Origin: an uncultured Candidatus Saccharibacteria bacterium
GTDB taxonomy: Bacteria > Patescibacteriota > Minisyncoccia > Phycocordibacterales > UBA2100
DNA length: 64,000 bases
Direction of reading: 5' to 3'
Assembly (NCBI GenBank): GCA_964362175.1
Contig: CAYIDD010000001.1
Span: 569-64,568, forward strand
Shown here: one piece after another, positions 47,771 through 57,649 of the stretch
Layout: every line of letters starts with the position of its first letter
How positions within the stretch are numbered: the stretch's first letter is position 1
Notes under the pieces: generated by a model
The model's database searches: none
What the model saw: only the letters and a program-made list of their open reading frames with translations
What the model was told of the DNA's origin: nothing
Translations under genes and position numbers: made by a program

Positions 47771-48727
47771 TCAAAGTTCCGAAATAATGCGGGCGATCTT
47801 TTCCGAATCGTGGCGCGCAATATCAGCCTCCGAGAAAAAGTCTCCGGTGATTATCTTCTCCGTGTACTGCGAGAGAGCCTCGTCGCATTCCATGGGATAC
47901 TTCTTCTCTTTCTCGTATGCGGCCGCGAGTTGCGGGTTCATCTTTTGCGTGTTGCATATCACGTAATCAAATTTTTTGAGGCCGCTGTATCGCAAAAGCT
48001 CTTGTACCATATCGGAGGCCTTAAACCCGTGCGTCTCCCCCCACTTGGTCATCAAATTGCATATCACGATCTTCTTTGCAGTGCTCGCGGCAAGCGCCTC
48101 TTTCATACCAGTCGTCGCAAGTGTCGGCACAAGAGATGAATAGAGGTCGCCGGGGCCGATAACAATGAGGTCGGCCTCGCGGATCGCTGTATCGGTCTCT
48201 TCGTAGATATGCGCAGGCGGATCGAGGAATATCTTTTTGATCCGCAGGTTGCCATCGTGTTTTGGGATGTCGATGTTAGTCTCCCCCACGATCTCAGAAC
48301 CATCCTCAAGAGTGGCGTGCACATGCGATCTATCGAGTGAGACCGGAAGAACTTTGCCCTTTATATTAAGAAGTTCGGAGGCTTTGCGGATGCCCTCTAT
48401 CTCGCCGCCATAAATGGCGGAAAGCGCCGCGAGAAAAAGGTTGCCGAAACTGTGTCCGCTGAGCGAACTATTCCCGTTCTGAAAACGATAGTTGAGAAGT
48501 TCGCGAAGAATTTCCGCTTGCCCCTCATCTGCGAGAGCCAAAAGCCCGCGCCGCACATCACCCGGAGGCAGAATGCCGAATTCGTCGCGCAGCACTCCAG
48601 CCGACCCGCCCGAATCGAACGAGGTGAATACTGCGGTGATATCGAGTGGAAATTCTTTTAGGCCGCGCAGTAAGGTATAGCCACCGCTGCCTCCCCCGAT
48701 CCTAACGACCTTCTTCCCTTTGGTCAT
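47771..48727 (-). CDS. YvcK/CofD-like (UPF0052, gluconeogenesis factor family)
   Basis: VVRIGGGSGGYTLLRGL N-terminal Gly-rich motif and family-typical length. Confidence 0.8.
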   Translation of the reverse strand: MTKGKKVVRIGGGSGGYTLLRGLKEFPLDITAVFTSFDSGGSAGVLRDEFGILPPGDVRRGLLALADEGQAEILRELLNYRFQNGNSSLSGHSFGNLFLAALSAIYGGEIEGIRKASELLNIKGKVLPVSLDRSHVHATLEDGSEIVGETNIDIPKHDGNLRIKKIFLDPPAHIYEETDTAIREADLIVIGPGDLYSSLVPTLATTGMKEALAASTAKKIVICNLMTKWGETHGFKASDMVQELLRYSGLKKFDYVICNTQKMNPQLAAAYEKEKKYPMECDEALSQYTEKIITGDFFSEADIARHDSEKIARIISEL

Positions 48728-48770
48728 GATTGGGAAACTCTATACCCTAGCCGCGACCTTGGCAACGACT

Positions 48771-49364
48771 TTATCGAGCGGATACGCCAAATTTCTTAAG
48801 CTCGGCGACGACATCCAAAAGCGGCAGACCGGCAATATTATTGATATCTCCGTCCGTCTTTTGTATCAATTTCGCTCCGCCTCCCTGAACGACATACGCC
48901 CCCGCCGCATTGAGCGGCTCACCCGTAGCCACGTAATCCAGAATCTCTTGTTCAGGCAATTTCCGCATCGTCACGCGGGTCGCAACGACTTTTGCAACCG
49001 ATTTCCCCGTCTTTGAATCCGCGATGGCAAATCCGGTCAGGAGTGTATGTGTTTTTCCGCTCAACATTTTCAACATCTGAACAGCTCGCTTCGGAGTAAG
49101 TGGTTTGCCCAAAAGTTCCCCGCGAAATACGGCAAACGTATCCGCCGCGAGCACGACCGCATCCTTATGCCGTGTGGCTGCCTTTTTCACTTTACCGAGT
49201 GCGAGCGTCCGCGCGAGCACGCGCGGCGAGAGCTTGAGCCCCATGTTTTCTTTGTAGCCACTTTCCTCAACCGTAAATCGGAAACCCGCCTTGGTGAGTA
49301 TGTTTTTGCGCCACGGAGAAGCAGAGGCGAGGATCAATTTTTTCATTTGATTTTGCGAAATCAT
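48771..49364 (-). CDS. maf: Maf-like nucleoside triphosphate pyrophosphatase
   Basis: ILASASPWRKNIL ... conserved Maf motifs. Confidence 0.8.
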   Translation of the reverse strand: MISQNQMKKLILASASPWRKNILTKAGFRFTVEESGYKENMGLKLSPRVLARTLALGKVKKAATRHKDAVVLAADTFAVFRGELLGKPLTPKRAVQMLKMLSGKTHTLLTGFAIADSKTGKSVAKVVATRVTMRKLPEQEILDYVATGEPLNAAGAYVVQGGGAKLIQKTDGDINNIAGLPLLDVVAELKKFGVSAR

Positions 49365-49400
49365 ATCGCGTACCGTCCATTAAAACGCGACCCCCCACTA

Positions 49401-49429
49401 TTGCACACCCGAAGCATTGCTGCTACCAT
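49401..49429 (+). promoter_or_regulatory. sigma70-like promoter (TTGCAC-17-TACCAT) driving the metK leader
   Basis: hexamer spacing only; no experimental support. Confidence 0.3.
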
Positions 49430-49441
49430 TGGCTGACTCCC

Positions 49442-49580
49442 CCCATACGTATCAAGCGTGCGGCGAAGGAACTGACCTTACGCCCCGCCGGCAACCTACT
49501 CGAAGAGCAAGGTGCCCTCAGACCCTAAAAGGGACGATACTTCTCACGAATATCTCCCCTACAGGGGAGATTAATCGTTT
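49442..49580 (+). promoter_or_regulatory. SAM-I riboswitch (aptamer ~49446-49542) plus terminator-like expression platform
   Basis: GUAUCAAG..GGCGAAGGAACUGACC..CGCCGGCAACC..GGUGCC..GAUAC matches the SAM-I consensus (P1 GUAUC/GAUAC). Followed by atctcccct-aca-aggggagat hairpin and TAATCGTTT, 20 nt before the metK ATG. Confidence 0.7.
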
Positions 49581-49592
49581 ACATAATCAGCC

Positions 49593-50645
49593 ATGTTCCA
49601 CTCATTAGAGCGATACACGACAGAGTCCGTAACCTCCGGTCATCCGGATAAAGTGTGCGATCAAATATCAGACGCGATCTTGGATGCCTGCCTCGCACAA
49701 GACCCGAATAGTCGCGTCGCGGTCGAATCATTCGGCAGCCACGGCACACTCATGCTCGGTGGCGAGGTGAAAACGAGCGCGAAAGTAAATTTCGAAAAGA
49801 TCGCACGCAGCGTGTATCGCGATATCGGGTACACTGACACGCTCAAGGTGCTCAATACTATCGCTAGGCAATCCCCCGACATCGCAATGGGCGTCGATAC
49901 CGGCGGCGCGGGAGATCAGGGCATCATGTACGGCTATGCAACGAATGAGACGAAAGAGATGCTCCCGCTCGGAGTCGTCCTCTCACATGCGCTCGCGCGC
50001 CGTCTTGAGAAATTGCGGCGCGACAAAACGCTGAAGTGGCTCAAGCCGGACGGCAAGACGCAGGTCACCATCGCGAATGGAAAAGTTATCACCGCGCTGT
50101 GCTCCACGCAACATGATAAGAAAGTCTCTCAGGAGGAGATCCGCAGGGGGCTCATCAAACATCTCTTCAGGCCGGTCTTGGGCAATTTGAAGGACATCGA
50201 GATCCTCGTAAACCCGACGGGACAATTTATCATCGGCGGCTTCACCGCAGACGCAGGTCTTACGGGCCGCAAGATCATGGTGGATACGTATGGCGGTGTC
50301 ATGCCTCACGGCGGTGGTGCGTTCTCCGGCAAAGACTCGACCAAGGTAGATCGCTCTGCGGCCTACATGTGCCGCTTCGTCGCCAAGAATTTGGTGGCGA
50401 ATGGTTACGCCAAGAAAGCGCTCGTCTCCGTGGCTTATGCCATCGGTCGCATTGAGCCTGTCATGATCGAAGCGTTCGACGAACACGGCAAGAATCTCAC
50501 AAAAATAGTCAGGGAGAACTTCGACTTCCGTCCCCGCGCGATCATCGATCGACTCAATCTCCGCAAACCAATCTTCCGCGAAACAGCCGCCTACGGCCAC
50601 TTCGGTGTGAGTGGTAGACCTTGGGAGAAAATCGTGAAGATTTGA
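49593..50645 (+). CDS. metK: S-adenosylmethionine synthetase
   Basis: GHPDK, GGGAFSGKD and other MetK signatures, full length. Confidence 0.95.
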   Translation: MFHSLERYTTESVTSGHPDKVCDQISDAILDACLAQDPNSRVAVESFGSHGTLMLGGEVKTSAKVNFEKIARSVYRDIGYTDTLKVLNTIARQSPDIAMGVDTGGAGDQGIMYGYATNETKEMLPLGVVLSHALARRLEKLRRDKTLKWLKPDGKTQVTIANGKVITALCSTQHDKKVSQEEIRRGLIKHLFRPVLGNLKDIEILVNPTGQFIIGGFTADAGLTGRKIMVDTYGGVMPHGGGAFSGKDSTKVDRSAAYMCRFVAKNLVANGYAKKALVSVAYAIGRIEPVMIEAFDEHGKNLTKIVRENFDFRPRAIIDRLNLRKPIFRETAAYGHFGVSGRPWEKIVKI

Positions 50646-50722
50646 TCTTCTTGAGCATTGACATCTCTTATTTTTGAGGTACTATTTCCCGAGTTGAAAC
50701 GCTTTAACCGAGAGGTGCTCAC

Positions 50723-51262
50723 GTGAATAGGAAGTTTCCAGCGAAAATCTATCGCGAGGATCCACATCACCGCATTCCGACGGGCTGGCTCGACGATCCG
50801 ACGTATGCCGCCGCGATGACGGGTTTCGTCATCGTCTGCACTGATGCCATGGTCATAGACCGTGTGCGGCGGACGGTGTGGCTCGCAGACAGGACGATCC
50901 TTCCAATGAAAGGGCTCTGGATACTGGGAGGCCGCCGCCTCCCGGGAGAGGCCATAGAGGCGTCGATCCAGCGATGCCTGGAGCGCGAGGCAAGGCTCAC
51001 GTTCGCGCGCGAACGATTCGAGTACCTCACACAGAACGAATACGTGTGGAGCACTCGGCAACAAGAGCCGCGGAACGTCGGCTCGCACAATCTGGCCGAC
51101 ACGTTCGCTATCGAGCTCACGAAAGATGAGCGCGATACCGTATCTCGCTCGCTTACGCCGAAGGAATACAAGCCCGGAGGCCTCCGGGAATTCGATCGGC
51201 AAGGTCTTCGCGATGCCAAGGTGCACCCTGCCCTGCTCGATCTTTACGACTTGGTTTTCTGA
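50723..51262 (+). CDS. NUDIX-like hydrolase with degenerate Nudix box
   Basis: GRRLPGEAIEASIQRCLEREARL partially matches Gx5Ex7REUxEExGU. Sits in the metK-glmS variable spacer. Confidence 0.4.
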   Translation: MNRKFPAKIYREDPHHRIPTGWLDDPTYAAAMTGFVIVCTDAMVIDRVRRTVWLADRTILPMKGLWILGGRRLPGEAIEASIQRCLEREARLTFARERFEYLTQNEYVWSTRQQEPRNVGSHNLADTFAIELTKDERDTVSRSLTPKEYKPGGLREFDRQGLRDAKVHPALLDLYDLVF

Positions 51263-51318
51263 CCCGAACAGGGTTGTAAGAGCCATCCGCCGCGCCCGAA
51301 AGGATGCGGCGGCTTTGT

Positions 51319-51593
51319 TTACTCAACAGTGACCGACTTCGCGAGGTTGCGGGGGCGGTCGGGGTTGTAGCCTTTTTCGCGCGAGAAGTAGTAGGAGAAG
51401 AGATGCAGCGGGACGATATTCACTATCGGAGAAAGCATCTCCGTTGTCTTTGGCACATAGATAACGTCGTCGGCAAGCTTTGCGATCTCCGTGTCACCTT
51501 CTGTCGCGACAGCAATGACGTGGCCTTTGCGCGCTTTTATCTGCTGAATGTTGGAGAGCATCTTTTCGTATACGCTGTCATCCGTAGCGATCG
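51319..51593 (-). pseudogene. glmS 3'-terminal fragment (last ~91 codons, no 5' part)
   Basis: 51332-51593 is nucleotide-identical to 53728-53989 of the intact glmS. The last 4 codons and the stop differ synonymously (TAA vs TAG). Confidence 0.85.
51332..51593. repeat. 262-bp perfect direct repeat, copy A
   Basis: identical to 53728-53989. Confidence 0.9.
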
Positions 51594-51760
51594 ACGAACA
51601 CGGCAAGAATCTGACAAAAGTTGTCCGGGAGAACTTCGACTTCCGTCCGCGCGCCATTCAAGACCGCCTCGGCCTCCGCAAACCCATCTTCCGCGAAACC
51701 GCCGCCTACGGTCACTTCGGTGTGAGCGGTAGACCTTGGGAAAAAATAATCAAGATCTAA
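51594..51760 (+). pseudogene. metK 3'-terminal fragment (last 55 codons), diverged copy (~87% nt identity to resident metK 50479-50645)
   Basis: encodes DEHGKNLTKVVRENFDFRPRAIQDRLGLRKPIFRETAAYGHFGVSGRPWEKIIKI. Joined to the glmS fragment at a tcgNcgaac microhomology. Confidence 0.85.
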
Positions 51761-53439
51761 GATTCGCTATTTCCCTCACGGTGGGACCCGACCACTAACG
51801 CAAATACGTTGCCATCCCCTTGAAACTCGGAGTACTTCTCGTCATCAATATTAGGTATATCAATCTCCGTCTGTACAACAGAGTAATCAGCCCCATCCAA
51901 AAATTTATCCGTTGCTTCCCCTATGTAATCGTAATTTGATATCAAAGCCTGTTCAGCATTCACCGAAATCAACGATATCCCCTTTTCTCTCGCCTCAGTT
52001 TCTAACTTAGAAAAGATATTTCGTATCGCGACATCCCAATCAAGCGCGACGGGAATTTGTATGGCATCTAAATGCCAGACTTTCTGTGTCTTGTCATCTT
52101 TTGTTGTTGTCGACAACAGATAGATATTCCCGACATGTTTATTATCAGGATCATATACTTTCACGTTGTAGAGCGGGAGGACAAGGTCGTCAAACGGAAG
52201 AGGGCGCCCGTCCGTGCAGTCACCACTTACGGCCCCAGGATTCCGATCGAGCGTCTCGTCTGGCCTTGCGTCAAGAGTAAATATAGATTTTTTGCCTTCC
52301 ATTCCTCCGTGAACAAGCTGTCGTTGCAGAGATTTGATTTTTCTGTTCAGATACTGCGCAACAGCTTCTGGCCCTAGGAAGAAGGTTGCAACGCCCGCGA
52401 GCAGGCGTTGGTTGAATTCTCGTTTACTCTTGAGTGTTTTGAGTTCGCCGCTCAAAGCTCGTTTTTCTTCGTTCGTGGCGGTCTTCATTCTTTCTCGCAA
52501 TTCGCGCTCCGTGTCCGACGCCAAGGTATGCTCACGAGTCGCATTAAGTGCTTGCGAGATCTGATTGGCATTCAAGAGCTTGTCTGCTGCGCCATGTAAA
52601 TCGTGACGCTCCAGGATCCTTGCGAATAAGCGCTTGCTGATGTCGAAGATATTATTTCCAAACTTTGCCTGTGTCTCATCAGACATTTCGACCGGATAAA
52701 ATAAATCGCCTCCCTGCGGCTGGTTTTCCGTTAGTTTTTGCCAAGACTCTTCTCGATAGAAATCTGGATCCGCCAACTTACCTCGCAGTCGCTCGAGCGA
52801 TTCGTATAGCTCTATTGATGCCTCTCCTGGCCATTTCTCAAAATCATCATCTTCGAAATTGTGCGTGTGCTTTTCTTGGATATCGTGAGGTTTGACCTTT
52901 TCAAACTCTGCGCAACCCTTTCTCACCAAACTCTTCACGCGATCGTAGAATATATCGCCGAGAAATTCATCCAGTTCCTTTGGAGTTACTTGCCCAAGAT
53001 GTTCGAGCATTGCTGGATCTTTGAGCTCTTGCAGGAGAGTGGATAGAGGGCTTCCATCGCCATCTATTTCCTTGATACAAGTTTCAGCTTCAGGGGAGAC
53101 TGCATTTTCCAGTGCTTCTAAGTTACCGAAAAGCAAGTCAACTTCCGAAAAGTCGATACGTCTTCCCATCTTGTTCCCTGATACCTCAAACGAGAGTGTC
53201 TCGAACGGGACATTTTCTTTCTTACGTTCGATTGCTTCCTGTTTTTGTTGTTTTTCTCTTTCGATCTCTCCTATTCTAGATTTTGGAATGATGCGATCGC
53301 CATCTTCGATTCGAGTGTATCCAATTGCCTCCAGGGCTTCGTCGGGGATGTCTCGAATATTCTTGTGTTGGCCCAATAAGTCCTGGATCGTTGGTTGCTT
53401 TTGTCCAGGCGGTCGTACCCTCTCCGGCATGATTTGCAT
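51757..53439 (-). CDS. orphan acidic protein (~560 aa from MQIMPERV; ORF-track frame is 606 aa)
   Basis: long uninterrupted ORF. Its stop overlaps the stop of the metK fragment. TATAAT immediately upstream of the ATG. No recognisable domain. Confidence 0.6.
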   Translation of the reverse strand: MQIMPERVRPPGQKQPTIQDLLGQHKNIRDIPDEALEAIGYTRIEDGDRIIPKSRIGEIEREKQQKQEAIERKKENVPFETLSFEVSGNKMGRRIDFSEVDLLFGNLEALENAVSPEAETCIKEIDGDGSPLSTLLQELKDPAMLEHLGQVTPKELDEFLGDIFYDRVKSLVRKGCAEFEKVKPHDIQEKHTHNFEDDDFEKWPGEASIELYESLERLRGKLADPDFYREESWQKLTENQPQGGDLFYPVEMSDETQAKFGNNIFDISKRLFARILERHDLHGAADKLLNANQISQALNATREHTLASDTERELRERMKTATNEEKRALSGELKTLKSKREFNQRLLAGVATFFLGPEAVAQYLNRKIKSLQRQLVHGGMEGKKSIFTLDARPDETLDRNPGAVSGDCTDGRPLPFDDLVLPLYNVKVYDPDNKHVGNIYLLSTTTKDDKTQKVWHLDAIQIPVALDWDVAIRNIFSKLETEAREKGISLISVNAEQALISNYDYIGEATDKFLDGADYSVVQTEIDIPNIDDEKYSEFQGDGNVFALVVGSHREGNSES

Positions 53440-53465
53440 TATACTCCGGGCTATACTGGAGCACA

Positions 53466-53728
53466 TGGACCTCCTTGAACAACGTGTGCAGAAAATCGAG
53501 CAACGGAACAACTCCGTGGAGATGGATAAGGCTTGGGAAACAAGCTGGACGAGGACAGGGCTCGTCGCCGCATTCACCTACATAACGATGGGTGTTTTTC
53601 TATCATTCATCGACGTCACACGACCGTGGCTCTCGGCGACTGTGCCAACGTTGGGCTTTGTTCTCTCAACGCTCTCGATGCCGTATTTCAAGCGCGCGTG
53701 GGGCCGGAAACGAACTATTCTACGGTAA
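53466..53728 (+). CDS. possible small two-TM membrane protein (87 aa)
   Basis: MDLLEQRVQKIEQRNNSVEMDKAWETSWTRTGLVAAFTYITMGVFLSFIDVTRPWLSATVPTLGFVLSTLSMPYFKRAWGRKRTILR. Overlaps the glmS stop. Confidence 0.25.
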
Positions 53729-55568
53729 CCGACTTCGCGAGGTTGCGGGGGCGGTCGGGGTTGTAGCCTTTTTCGCGCGAGAAGTAGTAGGAGAAGAGAT
53801 GCAGCGGGACGATATTCACTATCGGAGAAAGCATCTCCGTTGTCTTTGGCACATAGATAACGTCGTCGGCAAGCTTTGCGATCTCCGTGTCACCTTCTGT
53901 CGCGACAGCAATGACGTGGCCTTTGCGCGCTTTTATCTGCTGAATGTTGGAGAGCATCTTTTCGTATACGCTGTCATCCGTAGCGATCGCGAACGTCGGG
54001 AAGTTCTCATCTATCATCGCGATCGGTCCGTGCTTCATCTCACCGGCACCGCACCCTTCCGCGTGGATGTACGAAAGCTCCTTCAGCTTGAGCGCACCTT
54101 CGTACGCGATAGGCATGTTGTACTTCCTTCCGATGTACAAAAAATCGCGCACGTGCGCATATTTCCTTGCCAATGCCTCGACCTTCTCCCGCTGATCAAG
54201 AATAGATTGTATCTTCTGAGGCAGAGCCTTCAGTTCACGGGCGACCTCTTTCCCCTCGGCCTCGGACATGCCGCGTTGGCGACCGAGAAAGACCGTAAGC
54301 AGTGCCAGAGCGACAAGTTGCGAGATGAATGCTTTGGTGGAGGCAACGCCGATCTCGGGACCCGCATGATTGTAGACACCCGCATCCGTTTCCCGCGCGA
54401 TCGTGCTCCCCACTGTGTTTACGATGCCGAGCGTGAGGGCCCCATGCCGCCTTCCTTCGCGAAGAGCCTCAAGTGTATCTGCGGTCTCGCCGGATTGCGA
54501 TATGCCGAGCACGATGGTGCGCTCGTTGACGACGGGCTTGCGGTAGCGGAATTCGCTTCCAAGTTCCACTTCAACGGGAATGCCTGCGTGCTCTTCGAGC
54601 ATGTACTCCCCTACCAAGCCCGCGTAATACGCCGTGCCACACGCCACGATGATGATGCGGTCAATTTTTTCTAGCTGCTTCGCGACGCTCTCAAGCCCGC
54701 CGAGTTTCGCAAGACCGGTGTGCGGGATAAGCCGACCACGCAGTGTATTTTCCACCACCTCTGGCCCCTCCATTATTTCTTTCAACATGAAATGTTCGTA
54801 GCCTCCCTTCTGCGCCTCTTCCGCAGTCCAGTCAATATCCGTGGTGTCTCGCTTTACCTTTGAAGAATCCAACTTGAAGATCCTGTGCCCGTCGGGCGAA
54901 ATGACAGCGACATCGCCATCCTCGAGAAAAACGACCTTGCGCGTATGCGGCAGGATGGGCGAGGGGTCGGATGCGATAAAGTGCTCACCGTCGCCGAGTC
55001 CCAACACTATGGGAGAACCCATCCGCGCGGCAATGATGCGGTCAGGCTCTTTTTTATACTGCAGCGCAATGCCGTAGGTACCTCGTACCTCGTTGAGAGC
55101 TGCCAATGCTGCCTCTTCAAATGTTTTCTTTTTTCCTCCGGAGGAGGATCCGCCTTCGGCGGACAAGTGCTCCTCCACGAGATGCGCGAGCACCTCCGTG
55201 TCCGTCGACGATTTGAATTCATGACCGGCCTTCTCGAGCTTACGTTTCAATTCCTTAAAATTCTCGATGATGCCGTTGTGCACTACCCAGATCTCGCCCG
55301 TGGAATCGGAGTGCGGATGTGCATTTGCTTCGGTCGGCTCTCCGTGCGTCGCCCATCGAAGGTGCGCGATACCGCTTTTCCCTTCGAAACCTTTCGGCAT
55401 TTTCTTACGCAATTCGGCGACCGCACCGGGGGTGCGCACACTTCCGCTTTCAGGAGTGTAGATACCCGCAGAGTCGTAACCCCGATATTCGAGCGAAAGA
55501 AGCCCATCCAAAAGGATCCCGCCGGCGTCTTTTCCCCTCTTCCCCGTATACGCAAAAATACCGCACAT
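53715..55568 (-). CDS. glmS: glutamine--fructose-6-phosphate aminotransferase
   Basis: N-terminal MCGIFAY Ntn-hydrolase Cys. Two SIS domains. C-terminal ...KSVTVE. Confidence 0.95.
   Translation of the reverse strand: MCGIFAYTGKRGKDAGGILLDGLLSLEYRGYDSAGIYTPESGSVRTPGAVAELRKKMPKGFEGKSGIAHLRWATHGEPTEANAHPHSDSTGEIWVVHNGIIENFKELKRKLEKAGHEFKSSTDTEVLAHLVEEHLSAEGGSSSGGKKKTFEEAALAALNEVRGTYGIALQYKKEPDRIIAARMGSPIVLGLGDGEHFIASDPSPILPHTRKVVFLEDGDVAVISPDGHRIFKLDSSKVKRDTTDIDWTAEEAQKGGYEHFMLKEIMEGPEVVENTLRGRLIPHTGLAKLGGLESVAKQLEKIDRIIIVACGTAYYAGLVGEYMLEEHAGIPVEVELGSEFRYRKPVVNERTIVLGISQSGETADTLEALREGRRHGALTLGIVNTVGSTIARETDAGVYNHAGPEIGVASTKAFISQLVALALLTVFLGRQRGMSEAEGKEVARELKALPQKIQSILDQREKVEALARKYAHVRDFLYIGRKYNMPIAYEGALKLKELSYIHAEGCGAGEMKHGPIAMIDENFPTFAIATDDSVYEKMLSNIQQIKARKGHVIAVATEGDTEIAKLADDVIYVPKTTEMLSPIVNIVPLHLFSYYFSREKGYNPDRPRNLAKSVTVE
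53728..53989. repeat. 262-bp perfect direct repeat, copy B (within intact glmS 3' end)
   Basis: identical to 51332-51593. Confidence 0.9.
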
Positions 55569-55599
55569 CGAGCCACTTTAGCACGTTTGTCCGAAAAAA

Positions 55600-56637
55600 T
55601 TAACGCAGAATAATGTCGGCGATATCCGCGCGAAAGACGTTGATGGCGGAGCGGATGGAGGTTGCGTCAGGAGGACGCTTTGGGTACGTGCGGTTGGAGA
55701 GAATGACGAACGCAATGCCACGCTCAACATCGCATACGACCGATGTGCCGGTAAAACCTGTTTTGCCGAAAGTGTGTGGGCCGCAGCCTGTACCCATGAA
55801 CCACGGTTGATCGAGCTGCCAACCCAAACCTTTTTGCGCCCCCTCAACAACGTTCGGGTATGTACCCTGCAATAGGCTCTCCAAAAAATTCAAAATATCG
55901 GGGGCCGTTGAGAATAATCCTGCGTGGCCCACGGCTCGATGCGCGCGCGCGAAGACGCGCGCGCTTTCGTCGTGCACGATGCCGCGGATCTCTTCCCCCG
56001 CTTCATCGATCTCTGTTGGTGCCACCCGTACTTTATCGCGGGGGAAAAACGTCGTGTCCTTCATACGAAGCGGCCCGAAGAGATCCTCATTCGCAAGAGC
56101 GGGAAGTATCGATCCCCCGACACGCTCGAGAATTATGCCGAGCAAAAATGCCGGAAGATTCGTATACTCGAACTTCCCCGGTGGAGCGTCGAATCCATAT
56201 GAAAAAATATATTCCGATAGTTCCTCTGGTCTTTTATCTTTAAGAGTCGACATCTGTATCCCGTGTACGGCGTAGGTCAACAGGTGCTCGATGGTCGCCC
56301 CATGATCATTCTGTAGCTCGGGGACATATTTCTTCACCGGATCGGAAAGATCGAACTTTCCCTGCTTCAGGAAATTCAGCGCGAGCGAGGCGGTCGGTAT
56401 CGATTTTGTCACCGATGCAAGATCATACATGGTGTCTTCATGTACCGGTATATCCGCTTCGTATATAAAATGTCCGAAGGGCAACACCTCTCGCTCCCCC
56501 GATTTTTTCACGACACCAATAACGCACCCCGGAAATACTTTCTCCGCAATCGCTTTTTCTGCCCGAACCTTGATATCGCTACGCATCCGGATATGCTTCT
56601 TTAATTTCTTTCGCGAGATACGGGTTCCACATAGCAC
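55600..56637 (-). CDS. serine hydrolase (class C beta-lactamase/PBP4-like fold)
   Basis: SVTKS (SxxK) motif. Length and pattern of beta-lactamase-related esterases. Confidence 0.7.
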   Translation of the reverse strand: MLCGTRISRKKLKKHIRMRSDIKVRAEKAIAEKVFPGCVIGVVKKSGEREVLPFGHFIYEADIPVHEDTMYDLASVTKSIPTASLALNFLKQGKFDLSDPVKKYVPELQNDHGATIEHLLTYAVHGIQMSTLKDKRPEELSEYIFSYGFDAPPGKFEYTNLPAFLLGIILERVGGSILPALANEDLFGPLRMKDTTFFPRDKVRVAPTEIDEAGEEIRGIVHDESARVFARAHRAVGHAGLFSTAPDILNFLESLLQGTYPNVVEGAQKGLGWQLDQPWFMGTGCGPHTFGKTGFTGTSVVCDVERGIAFVILSNRTYPKRPPDATSIRSAINVFRADIADIILR

Positions 56638-57649
56638 CGGTGGCGGTCATCACCACATCAGCCCCCGCATCGCGGTACTCTTTAAAATCCGTAGGGATCG
56701 TCACGCCGCCACTACCGAGAATTGCATACTTCATGCCAAATTCTTCCCGCAAACTCTTGAGGCGCCGCACCATGTCGAGCCCCGCCCACTTGACCGCATG
56801 GCCGCAAATGCCGCTCTTTACCCTGTGTGCGCCGGGGAGTGCCTGCGTGCCATCGGGATTCACGACGGGTGCGGGAATGGTATTTATCGCTGCGAACCCG
56901 TCCACCACGCTGCCAACCTCTCTCACCAATTCCCTGAGGGAGGGCTCATCAAAATACGCTATCTTTATGACGAGTTTTGTATCCCCTATTTTGTTTTTTA
57001 TCGCCTCGGATATTACGCGTACCTTGGGCACATCGAAACAGAGGAGTTGCGCAGCGCCTTCATTGGGACATGAAAAATTTGTCTCGACCACCTTTACCCC
57101 CGTATCCTTGATCATCTGCGCCCCCTGCACCCAATCGTCGATATAATCTTCGGGCGAAAATCCTTCCCACTTGGTGCCCTCAAAACTACACATCACCAAT
57201 TGGCCGGGTTTGGCGTACGCGACGCAATCATGTAAGTCCTTTTGCCAAACGTCGGACTCGTACGAGGGATTGCCGAAGGAGTTGGTGATGGAAAGCGGTT
57301 CCCTGTATTCATTGCGAACGACAACGGGCGTATTCGCCATCTCGAGCGTGAGGTCGCCCTTGATATCCGCGCCCAGCACATTGGGCCACTGATTGGACTC
57401 GCGCGCGCGGCTGCGCACGGTCTTGTGTACCGGTACGTCGAATCCCTTATCGAGCGCCGCCTTCACGAATTTTCCGTTCAAAAGCGGTCCTGCAGGAATA
57501 CCGAGGGGATATGAGAGTTTGTGCCCCAGAAGATCAAACCGTGGTTCCCCTGCGGGCAATACCACCCCATCCACAAAATCGTTGAACGGCCCTTGCTCCC
57601 AATTCTCGGCGTAGGTCTTTGCGGGGTCGAAGAATGGTGCTCGCAACAT
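56579..57649 (-). CDS. dihydroorotate dehydrogenase-family TIM-barrel flavoprotein (PyrD/DPD-like)
   Basis: GIPAGPL.., FSCPN, GSGGV motifs. 3' end overlaps the next gene by 59 nt. Confidence 0.6.
   Translation of the reverse strand: MLRAPFFDPAKTYAENWEQGPFNDFVDGVVLPAGEPRFDLLGHKLSYPLGIPAGPLLNGKFVKAALDKGFDVPVHKTVRSRARESNQWPNVLGADIKGDLTLEMANTPVVVRNEYREPLSITNSFGNPSYESDVWQKDLHDCVAYAKPGQLVMCSFEGTKWEGFSPEDYIDDWVQGAQMIKDTGVKVVETNFSCPNEGAAQLLCFDVPKVRVISEAIKNKIGDTKLVIKIAYFDEPSLRELVREVGSVVDGFAAINTIPAPVVNPDGTQALPGAHRVKSGICGHAVKWAGLDMVRRLKSLREEFGMKYAILGSGGVTIPTDFKEYRDAGADVVMTATGAMWNPYLAKEIKEAYPDA

What the first reader, a model, noticed from the sequence alone, without database searches (positions are those of the whole stretch)
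49593..55568. Duplicative insertion at the glmS 3' end between convergent metK and glmS: 262-bp perfect direct repeat plus a diverged metK fragment bracketing an orphan 600-aa gene
Layout on the + strand:
- metK (intact, ends 50645)
- NUDIX-like gene
- glmS 3' fragment, minus strand (51319-51593)
- metK 3' fragment (51594-51760)
- 606-aa ORF, minus strand
- intact glmS, minus strand (53715-55568)

The glmS fragment is 100% identical over 262 bp to the resident glmS 3' end (51332-51593 = 53728-53989). Its last four codons and stop differ only synonymously. The metK fragment is only ~87% identical to the resident metK 3' end but encodes the same C-terminus. The two fragments are fused tail-to-tail at a 9-nt microhomology (gcgaTCGcGAACg in glmS, gcgtTCGaCGAACa in metK, junction gcgaTCGACGAACa). 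That is exactly the junction expected if a metK-3'...glmS-3' segment from a related strain was circularised and then re-integrated by homologous recombination in the glmS 3' region.

This implies a donor whose metK-glmS spacer carried the 606-aa gene where this genome carries the NUDIX-like gene. The metK-glmS spacer, which is the Tn7 attachment hotspot, would then be a cargo-swapping locus. The result here is a 2396-bp repeat unit.
Basis: partly seen in the sequence, partly recalled or inferred. Interest (0 to 1): 0.8.

Follow-up and report, generated by a model that had tools for sequence, protein, structure and literature searches.

The report
Two cargo alleles joined in tandem
In an uncultivated groundwater bacterium, two alternative gene cargoes for the same metK–glmS slot sit side by side. 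They are stitched together by one illegitimate DNA join and a duplicated 262-bp piece of glmS, which is a scar of recombination-driven gene gain by known mechanisms and not a new kind of mobile element.

Summary
A 262-bp glmS 3' segment occurs twice (51332-51593 = 53728-53989, 0 mismatches). The last 13 nt of glmS differ at 5 synonymous sites between the copies. A 167-nt metK 3' fragment, 85% identical to the resident metK, is fused to the glmS fragment at 51593|51594.

The source is a metaSPAdes contig of a Kaiserbacteria-like Patescibacterium from Hainich groundwater. The junction also appears in a Logan contig. A replicate-2 contig stops 2 nt from it, and replicate contigs break exactly one k-mer into the repeat. 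Loop and chromosome coverage are similar (4 vs 5).

- Two contigs carry "metK – 560-aa gene – 87-aa gene – glmS" with no duplication.
- The closest relatives have an empty site (0-26 bp).
- Another carries a 309-aa secreted protein.

The slot is therefore a cargo hotspot.

No recombinase is present. The "orphan" protein has a GNAT-fold C-terminal domain.

The circle-plus-single-crossover model fits only if donor and recipient glmS were nearly identical. I favour one homologous exchange plus one microhomology join (HFIR or template switching). The mechanism class is known, so interest is moderate.

The parts
49593..50645 (+). Intact metK (allele A), 350 aa. It is preceded by a SAM-I riboswitch-like element at 49446-49543.
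   Evidence: Pfam finds the S-AdoMet_synt N, M and C domains. Rfam RF00162 scores 32.6 bits, below the gathering score.
50723..51262 (+). Cargo A: a 179-aa NUDIX-like gene. It has its own promoter-like site (50658-50685) and a terminator hairpin (51287-51312).
   Evidence: Pfam NUDIX E=0.0035, below the cut-off. Only 4 family members are known, and they sit in unrelated contexts. Promoter and terminator. GC is 59% against 54% for the window.
51319..51331 (-). tail_A: the last four codons plus TAA stop of the displaced glmS 3' fragment.
   Evidence: Differs from tail_B at 5 of 13 nt, all synonymous.
51332..51593 (-). R_left: the 262-bp glmS 3' fragment (SIS domain C-terminus), a copy of 53728-53989.
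   Evidence: 100% identity. Replicate contigs L003 and L004 end at 51386, the first shared 55-mer. Logan contig L005 ends at 51361.
51587..51599 (.). Illegitimate junction glmS'|metK', with the join between 51593 and 51594 (GCGATCG|ACGAAC).
   Evidence: Sequence. Microhomology statistics. The junction is also present in Logan contig L097 with 30 nt of R. R2 contig L098 starts at 51592.
51594..51760 (+). metK_B': a 167-nt 3' fragment of a foreign metK allele (the last 55 codons plus stop).
   Evidence: 85% nt identity to the resident copy; of the differing codons, 14 sense codons plus the stop are synonymous and 4 are non-synonymous. Pfam S-AdoMet_synt_C positions 90-138. It is closer to the resident metK than to any database relative.
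51757..53439 (-). Cargo B1: a 560-aa protein with a helical N-terminal region and a C-terminal GNAT-fold domain. Its stop overlaps the metK' stop.
53465..53728 (+). Cargo B2: an 87-aa putative two-TM protein, divergent from the 560-aa gene. Its last 14 nt overlap the end of glmS.
   Evidence: 80% aa conserved at the same position in L007 and L008. Called by PGAP in GCA_038056835.1.
53715..55568 (-). Intact glmS (617 aa), made of tail_B (53715-53727), R_right (53728-53989) and the rest of the gene.
   Evidence: Pfam GATase plus 2x SIS. Repeat.

Best explanation
This is an integrase-free 'heteroallelic tandem' at a recombination hotspot. In this Kaiserbacteria-like clade, metK and glmS converge stop-to-stop. 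Different lineages carry different cargo in that slot. Here DNA of a B-type allele (metK 3' end – 560-aa GNAT-domain gene – 87-aa gene – glmS end), from a closely related lineage, was combined with an A-type chromosome (metK – NUDIX-like gene – glmS).

The combination used host recombination only. One exchange was homologous, in or next to the ultra-conserved glmS 3' coding block. The other was an illegitimate, microhomology-guided join between glmS nt 53989 and the metK position equivalent to 50478. The outcome keeps both cargoes, one intact metK and one intact glmS. It leaves a dead glmS 3' fragment fused to a dead metK 3' fragment, and a 262-bp direct repeat.

The most economical routes are one-step:
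- Homology-facilitated illegitimate recombination after DNA uptake, possibly bridging sister chromatids.
- Replicative template switching.

In these routes the two glmS repeat copies are identical either because both are copied from one genome, or because donor and recipient were conspecific strains that differ only in the island and its edges.

What is shown: the anatomy, the foreign origin of metK', the existence of B-type and empty alleles in relatives, and the absence of a recombinase. What is inferred: the route, and the polarity (which allele was resident).
For: - Repeat, tails, metK' divergence and codon pattern.
- The junction is a tandem-type join with 3 nt exact and 6/7 nt imperfect microhomology.
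- The junction or truncation point is reproduced in Logan contig L097 and R2 contig L098. Contig breaks fall exactly k or k-1 nt into the repeat in R2, R3 and Logan.
- Loop coverage is 4 against chromosome contig coverage of 5 in R2 (record names).
- The B-type allele occurs without duplication in L007 and L008, collinear at about 80% nt identity right up to the junction point.
- The site is empty in the closest relatives L099-L103 and in L013. L014 holds a third cargo.
- R and the metK 3' end diverge at similar rates between species (70-78%), so about 39 differences would be expected in R for an orthologous pair. Zero are seen.
- A 20-nt block next to the tail is identical even in relatives at 80% identity, which offers a crossover point.
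- The unit has no recombinase. The 560-aa protein has a GNAT fold.
- Precedents: HFIR is described in PMC3240628, and interchromatid integration of donor DNA that creates tandem duplications in PMC3784515.
- Type IV pilus genes are common in these groundwater Patescibacteria (PMC8672522).
Against: - No reads were available, so linkage across the 262-bp repeat rests on the assembler. metaSPAdes can traverse a simple loop once without read-pair proof.
- Repeat identity is partly by construction in such an assembly.
- The donor genome, with a full-length metK_B, was not found, so it is unknown whether its glmS matches.
- Polarity could not be determined. Sliding-window comparisons were inconclusive.
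- The R2 loop contig starts 2 nt from the junction, not 55 nt into the repeat. This hints at a second left context or a coverage gap.
- HFIR events described in the laboratory usually delete target DNA rather than duplicate it (my own knowledge).
Confidence: 0.55

Rival explanations
1. A metK-3'…glmS-3' segment of a B-type strain was circularised by illegitimate end joining at the microhomology. It then integrated by a single homologous crossover (Campbell type) in the 262-bp glmS region of an A-type chromosome.
For: The topology and 2396-bp unit fit exactly. A B-type donor arrangement exists. The graph is a simple loop, so a circular form is compatible.
Against: A single crossover makes the two repeats reciprocal donor/recipient chimeras. 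With a donor 15% diverged, as in metK', about 39 differences are expected and none is seen. The model therefore needs a donor that is identical in glmS but diverged in the last 13 nt and in metK. It also needs two separate rare steps, circularisation and then integration.
Confidence: 0.22
2. Two steps in situ. First, an ordinary microhomology-mediated tandem duplication of the metK-3'…glmS-3' segment occurred in a B-type genome. Later, homologous replacement swapped the left copy (metK plus cargo plus glmS tail) for an A-type allele.
For: It explains identical R copies without special pleading. glmS of the window is closer to B-type L007 (88% aa) than to the empty-site relatives (76-82%), while metK_A is closer to the empty-site relatives (93-95% vs 90%). 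This hints that glmS and the B cargo are co-resident.
Against: It needs two rare events. An unselected 2.4-kb tandem duplication is unstable. The right-hand crossover of the replacement must again fall within about 20 nt of the glmS tail. The phylogenetic discordance is modest and no breakpoint is seen.
Confidence: 0.08
3. Assembly-level artefact of linkage. The chromosome is plain A-type (metK–NUDIX–glmS). The B unit exists only as a separate 2396-bp circle, or in a minor subpopulation, and the assembler threaded the loop into the contig.
For: The repeat (262 bp) exceeds k=55. R2 and R3 assemblies did not resolve it. Coverage is low at 4-7x. From my own knowledge of the SPAdes path extender, it can traverse a simple loop once.
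Against: The junction itself must be in reads, because no k-mer is shared between glmS and metK there, and it appears with two assemblers. The unit has no replication gene. Loop coverage roughly equals chromosome coverage. A circle would in any case be the excision product of the integrated form.
Confidence: 0.1
4. A site-specific mobile element, either Tn7-like or an integrase-type island, that targets the glmS 3' end and carries a replacement glmS end.
For: The glmS 3' end is the classical attTn7 region (established knowledge). The direct repeats bracket the unit and glmS is restored intact.
Against: There is no transposase, integrase or TnsABCD-like protein, and the only large ORF has a GNAT fold. 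The same cargo sits in L007 and L008 without repeats. A metK fragment lies inside the unit. Homologues of the 560-aa gene elsewhere are not next to glmS.
Confidence: 0.02

Closest known systems
Homology-facilitated illegitimate recombination (HFIR) during natural transformation or conjugation (described for three naturally competent species and for E. coli conjugation in PMC3240628)
   Same: One homologous anchor plus one illegitimate join, which adds foreign genes without any dedicated recombinase.
   Different: Here the event duplicates 262 bp and retains both alleles, rather than deleting target DNA. It is inferred from a metagenome-assembled CPR genome, not from an experiment. Competence of the host was not tested.
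Transformation-triggered merodiploidy / tandem duplication by interchromatid integration (S. pneumoniae, PMC3784515)
   Same: A donor fragment pairing at two non-allelic places yields a head-to-tail duplication with a novel junction. The duplication can later collapse by recombination between the repeats.
   Different: The pneumococcal cases use IS-like repeats of good homology and span 100-900 kb. Here one join is microhomology only, the unit is 2.4 kb, and the two 'copies' carry unrelated cargo.
Campbell-type integration of a circular DNA by single crossover
   Same: A direct repeat of the homology segment flanks the inserted unit. The unit length equals the repeat spacing (2396 bp).
   Different: The expected reciprocal chimerism of the repeats is absent. 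There is no replicon or selectable circle, and the circle itself would have to arise by illegitimate joining.
Tn7 / attTn7 insertion downstream of glmS
   Same: The same conserved landmark, the glmS C-terminal coding DNA, borders variable cargo.
   Different: There are no Tns proteins, no Tn7 ends and no 5-bp target duplication. The breakpoints are inside glmS, and the cargo is exchanged by flanking homology.
Flexible genomic islands / hotspots replaced by homologous recombination in flanking core genes
   Same: Conserved flanks (metK, glmS), at least four alternative cargo states among relatives, and mosaic divergence at the island edges.
   Different: The window captures two alleles in tandem with an illegitimate junction. 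That is not the usual clean replacement.

Membership tests
Tn7-like transposon at attTn7 | Transposition genes (TnsA/B/C plus TnsD-like target selector) within the element | tested here: not met
   The unit encodes only a GNAT-fold 560-aa protein and an 87-aa membrane protein. Pfam, NCBIfam, PADLOC and PHROGs are blank.
Tn7-like transposon at attTn7 | Insertion a few tens of bp downstream of an undisturbed glmS stop, with a short target duplication | tested here: not met
   The boundaries lie 13 nt and 275 nt inside the glmS coding sequence, and the duplication is 262 bp.
Integrase-mediated genomic island at a gene 3' end | Tyrosine or serine recombinase gene in the island | tested here: not met
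   None is present in 51594-53989.
Integrase-mediated genomic island at a gene 3' end | Direct repeats (attL/attR) made of the target gene's 3' end, with the gene restored | tested here: met
   262-bp direct repeat; glmS is intact at 53715-55568.
Simple tandem duplication by illegitimate recombination | A novel junction that joins the distal end of the segment to its proximal start, at microhomology | tested here: met
   53989-equivalent joined to 50479-equivalent; TCG exact, 6/7 nt imperfect.
Simple tandem duplication by illegitimate recombination | The two units are copies of one another | tested here: not met
   Only R is identical. The metK parts are 85% identical and the spacers are unrelated, NUDIX-like versus 560-aa + 87-aa.
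Campbell-type single-crossover integration | Inserted unit flanked by direct repeats of the homology segment | tested here: met
   Repeat spacing equals unit length, 2396 bp.
Campbell-type single-crossover integration | Repeats are reciprocal donor/recipient hybrids, differing wherever donor and recipient differ | tested here: inconclusive
   0/262 differences, although the adjacent donor-derived DNA differs by 15-38%. This is compatible only with a donor identical in R. The donor was not found.
HFIR-type event | One homologous anchor and one microhomology join (3-10 nt) | tested here: met
   The homologous boundary lies at the tail/R transition, next to a 20-nt universally conserved block. 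The microhomology join is at 51593|51594.
HFIR-type event | DNA uptake (competence) by the host | not tested
   The only support is the general statement that type IV pilus genes are frequent in these groundwater Patescibacteria (PMC8672522).
Recombination hotspot / flexible island | The same flanking core genes with different cargo in related genomes | tested here: met
   Empty in L013 and L099-L103. A 309-aa secreted protein in L014. 87-aa + 560-aa in L007 and L008. NUDIX-like plus B cargo here.

The most novel reading that the evidence does not exclude
The stop-to-stop metK><glmS junction of this Patescibacteria clade may be a dedicated, recombinase-free cassette-exchange site. It would be anchored on the invariant GlmS C-terminal coding block, the same DNA that Tn7 exploits. 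Heteroallelic tandems like this one would be regular, reversible intermediates. The cell holds both cargo alleles. Recombination between the 262-bp repeats then pops out a 2.4-kb circle carrying the cargo plus ready-made homology arms, and neighbours could take it up.
Probability: 0.15. Interest if true: 0.6.

Novelty: new member of a known kind. Interest (0 to 1): 0.38.

Why it matters
CPR/Patescibacteria have tiny genomes and few recognisable mobile elements, so how they gain accessory genes is poorly documented. This locus gives a base-pair-resolved natural example. It has a conserved convergent gene pair as a hotspot, at least four cargo states in relatives, and a junction showing that host recombination alone (homologous plus illegitimate) can add a foreign cassette while keeping both essential genes intact.

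It is also a practical warning. The 262-bp repeat broke two of three replicate assemblies, and annotation reports spurious 'MetK domain' and 'SIS' mini-proteins.

The mechanism class is known from laboratory work, so the value lies in illustration rather than in a new concept.

Tried and rejected
- **Junction and 560-aa gene in JGI metagenomes:** no hits.
- **Exact-protein look-ups across the junction:** the junction-spanning 70-aa ORF and the 87-aa gene returned only the same NCBI contig.
- **Donor search:** the 90% metK cluster has 22 members, of which 15 were listed and 13 sequences were read. None has the metK_B' C-terminus, and the resident metK remains its nearest relative.
- **Polarity (which allele was resident):** sliding-window identity along metK and glmS against L007, L013, L014 and L099 showed no breakpoint. 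There is only a mild discordance: glmS is nearer to L007, and metK nearer to L099 and L013.
- **Gene conversion as the cause of repeat identity:** considered unlikely, because the tract would have to reach both ends of the homology to within a few nt.
- **k-mer chimera between two strains:** rejected. glmS and metK share no k-mer at the join, and no contig continues metK_B' upstream.
- **Mobile element, defence or phage origin of the cargo:** Pfam, PADLOC, NCBIfam, PHROGs, plasmid and phage searches were all blank.
- **glmS ribozyme:** none was found in 48500-57000. The only Rfam hit is the SAM riboswitch.
- **132,299-bp contig:** a second record carries metK_A, the 560-aa gene and glmS.


Full report
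**1. Observation**

- metK, 49593-50645 (+).
- A 179-aa weak NUDIX match, 50723-51262 (+).
- A glmS 3' fragment, 51319-51593 (-).
- A metK 3' fragment, 51594-51760 (+).
- A long minus-strand ORF, 51757-53577.
- Intact glmS, 53715-55568 (-).

Base-by-base comparison gives the following:
- 51332-51593 = 53728-53989 with 0 mismatches over 262 bp, at a spacing of 2396.
- The last 13 nt of glmS differ at 5 positions, all synonymous (tail_A GTCACTGTTGAGTAA; tail_B GTTACCGTAGAATAG).
- The metK fragment is 142/167 = 85% identical to the resident 3' end. Of the differing codons, 14 sense codons plus the stop are synonymous and 4 change the amino acid, so 51/55 residues are the same.
- This pattern is purifying selection. 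The fragment diverged while part of a working metK and is not a decayed local duplicate.
- The join is GCGATCG|ACGAAC. Exact microhomology is only TCG (chance P about 0.055). However, 6 of the 7 nt to the left match (P about 0.002), and CGAAC recurs with a 1-nt offset.

- The gene is 557-560 aa, with its start at 53430 or 53439. This is supported by homologues beginning MQ(I/T)MPE and by PGAP.
- An 87-aa two-TM gene (53465-53728, +) lies between it and glmS and overlaps the glmS stop by 14 nt.

**2. Source, and is it an artefact?**

Exact-protein look-ups place the window on ENA ERZ1292629 contig Hain_H43_01um_R1_53 (113,413 bp, coverage 7), which is NCBI JBBUER010000001.1. This is Hainich groundwater, 0.1-um fraction. 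Each replicate was assembled separately with metaSPAdes 3.13 (PMC8672522). metK relatives identify a Kaiserbacteria-like Patescibacterium.

Evidence from the other assemblies:
- The replicate-3 and replicate-2 contigs that carry metK_A and the NUDIX-like gene both end at window 51386. That is exactly the first 55-mer shared by the two repeat copies.
- A Logan contig ends at 51361, which is k-1 = 30. A second path (tail_B) therefore enters the repeat in every library.
- A Logan contig of run ERR3858116 (L097, 2194 bp) equals window 51564-53757 at 100% identity. It contains 30 nt of R, the junction and the whole B unit.
- A replicate-2 metaSPAdes contig (L098, 2191 bp, coverage 4) equals 51592-53782.
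- No contig continues metK_B' upstream, so the truncation is real.
- glmS and metK share no k-mer at the join, so an assembler could not have invented it.
- Loop coverage (4) is close to the chromosome contig coverage in the same replicate (5).

Three things remain untested without reads:
- Linkage across the 262-bp repeat. An integrated tandem and a chromosome plus a 2396-bp circle give the same graph, and SPAdes may thread a simple loop once.
- True identity of the two copies. The same edge is traversed twice, so sparse SNPs would be hidden. Divergence of 10-15% would not collapse.
- Why L098 starts 2 nt from the junction, not 55 nt into R.

**3. Relatives**

The 560-aa protein belongs to a tiny family of 9 proteins among 5.8 billion. 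Its nearest member (81% aa) lies on two short metagenome contigs, L007 and L008. Their gene order is glmS – 87-aa gene – 559-aa gene – metK. They are collinear with window 55001-51593 at about 80% nt identity and then run on into a full metK. They have no NUDIX-like gene and no fragments. The end overlaps are also conserved: the 560-aa stop overlaps the metK stop, and the 87-aa gene overlaps the glmS end. B is therefore an old, compacted allele.

Other states of the slot:
- The closest metK relatives (95% aa; L099-L101, L102/L103) and L013 (93%) have fully syntenic flanks and an empty site. metK and glmS stops are 0, 26 and about 10 bp apart.
- L014 (87%) holds a 309-aa secreted protein there.
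- The NUDIX-like gene has only three relatives, and the two whose contigs were examined sit in unrelated contexts.

The slot thus has at least four states, and empty is the common one. The fragment arrangement is unique to this genome.

**4. What the cargo is**

The unit contains no recombinase, transposase or replication gene. Pfam, NCBIfam, PADLOC and PHROGs are blank for the 560-aa protein, and it has no plasmid or phage match.

The gene is GC-poor (46%) both here and in L007, against flanks of 53-55%. The unit is therefore passive cargo and not a self-mobile element.

**5. Mechanism**

The junction has tandem-duplication topology, but the two 'units' carry different cargo. Between species, R and the metK 3' end diverge at similar rates (70-78% identity). 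An orthologous donor/recipient pair as diverged as metK_A and metK_B' (15%) should therefore differ at about 39 of the 262 R positions. The probability of zero differences is about 3e-19 at 15% divergence. It is still only 0.005 at 2%.

A Campbell single crossover makes the two repeats reciprocal chimeras. That is possible if they were conspecific strains whose island edges are mosaic from earlier allele swaps.

Gene conversion would have to reach both ends of the homology to within a few nt, which is unlikely.

The sharp tail/R boundary sits next to a 20-nt block (CGCAACCTCGCGAAGTCGGT, coding for the invariant ...RNLAKSV... end of GlmS). This block is identical even in relatives at 80% identity, so it is a natural crossover point.

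I therefore favour a one-step event with one homologous and one microhomology join. Two routes fit:
- Classical HFIR between conspecific A-type and B-type DNA. For example, an A-type fragment is anchored upstream and joined illegitimately into the resident metK_B.
- A template-switch or interchromatid event in which both R copies are copied from the recipient.

Laboratory precedents are HFIR (PMC3240628) and transformation-triggered tandem duplications by interchromatid integration (PMC3784515).

Which allele was resident could not be decided. glmS is nearer to the B-type relative L007 (88% aa vs 76-82%), and metK_A is nearer to the empty-site relatives (93-95% vs 90%). No breakpoint is visible.

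**6. Comparison with known systems and verdict**

- The locus is not a Tn7-like or integrase island. The defining genes are absent, the breakpoints are inside glmS, and the same cargo occurs without repeats elsewhere.
- It is not a simple tandem duplication, because the units are not copies of one another.
- It behaves like an HFIR, merodiploid or Campbell product at a flexible-island hotspot.

The specific circle model is under-determined and conflicts with the repeat identity unless the donor shared the glmS allele. The Tn7 link is an analogy only.

Novelty: a new natural member of a known kind of event. Interest is moderate (0.38). It is a clean, well-documented scar of recombinase-free gene gain in a CPR bacterium and a useful assembly and annotation caveat, but it is not a new mechanism.

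Noticed in passing
window 49446-49543 (differences at 49457 and 49483): A SAM-I riboswitch-like leader lies upstream of metK. The window has C at two positions where every public copy has A (ENA R1, R2 and R3, Logan, NCBI). Both positions are inside the aptamer. The Rfam score drops from 41.0 to 32.6 bits, and both are below the gathering score of 44.4. These are the only differences in about 24 kb compared.
   Followed up: partly
It overlaps the glmS stop by 14 nt and is 80% conserved at the same place in L007 and L008. Among the loci fetched, it is found only together with the 560-aa gene in the metK-glmS allele.
   Followed up: partly
[not shown]
   Followed up: partly
L098 (ERZ1292632 R2 contig) = window 51592-53782: The replicate-2 contig for the B unit begins 2 nt before the junction, not 55 nt into the repeat. 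This suggests either a second left-hand context that differs at 51591 or a coverage gap exactly there.
   Followed up: no
window 50591-51286 (-) and 51319-51561 (-), 51548-51760 (+): Public annotations contain spurious calls here. The ENA gene calls replace the NUDIX-like gene by a 231-aa antisense ORF. An 80-aa 'SIS' protein is called in both the ENA and the NCBI records, and a 70-aa 'methionine adenosyltransferase domain-containing protein' is called by PGAP. Both are the dead gene fragments.
   Followed up: yes
window 51287-51312: A strong GC-rich hairpin (about -28 kcal/mol for the 68-nt region folded) followed by CTTTGTTT. It lies between the NUDIX-like stop and the glmS fragment stop and is a likely terminator carried with cargo A.
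   Followed up: partly
(record not fetched): A second public contig of 132,299 bp carries the identical metK, 560-aa protein and glmS. It may be an independent assembly of the same arrangement and possibly the true source of the window.
   Followed up: no
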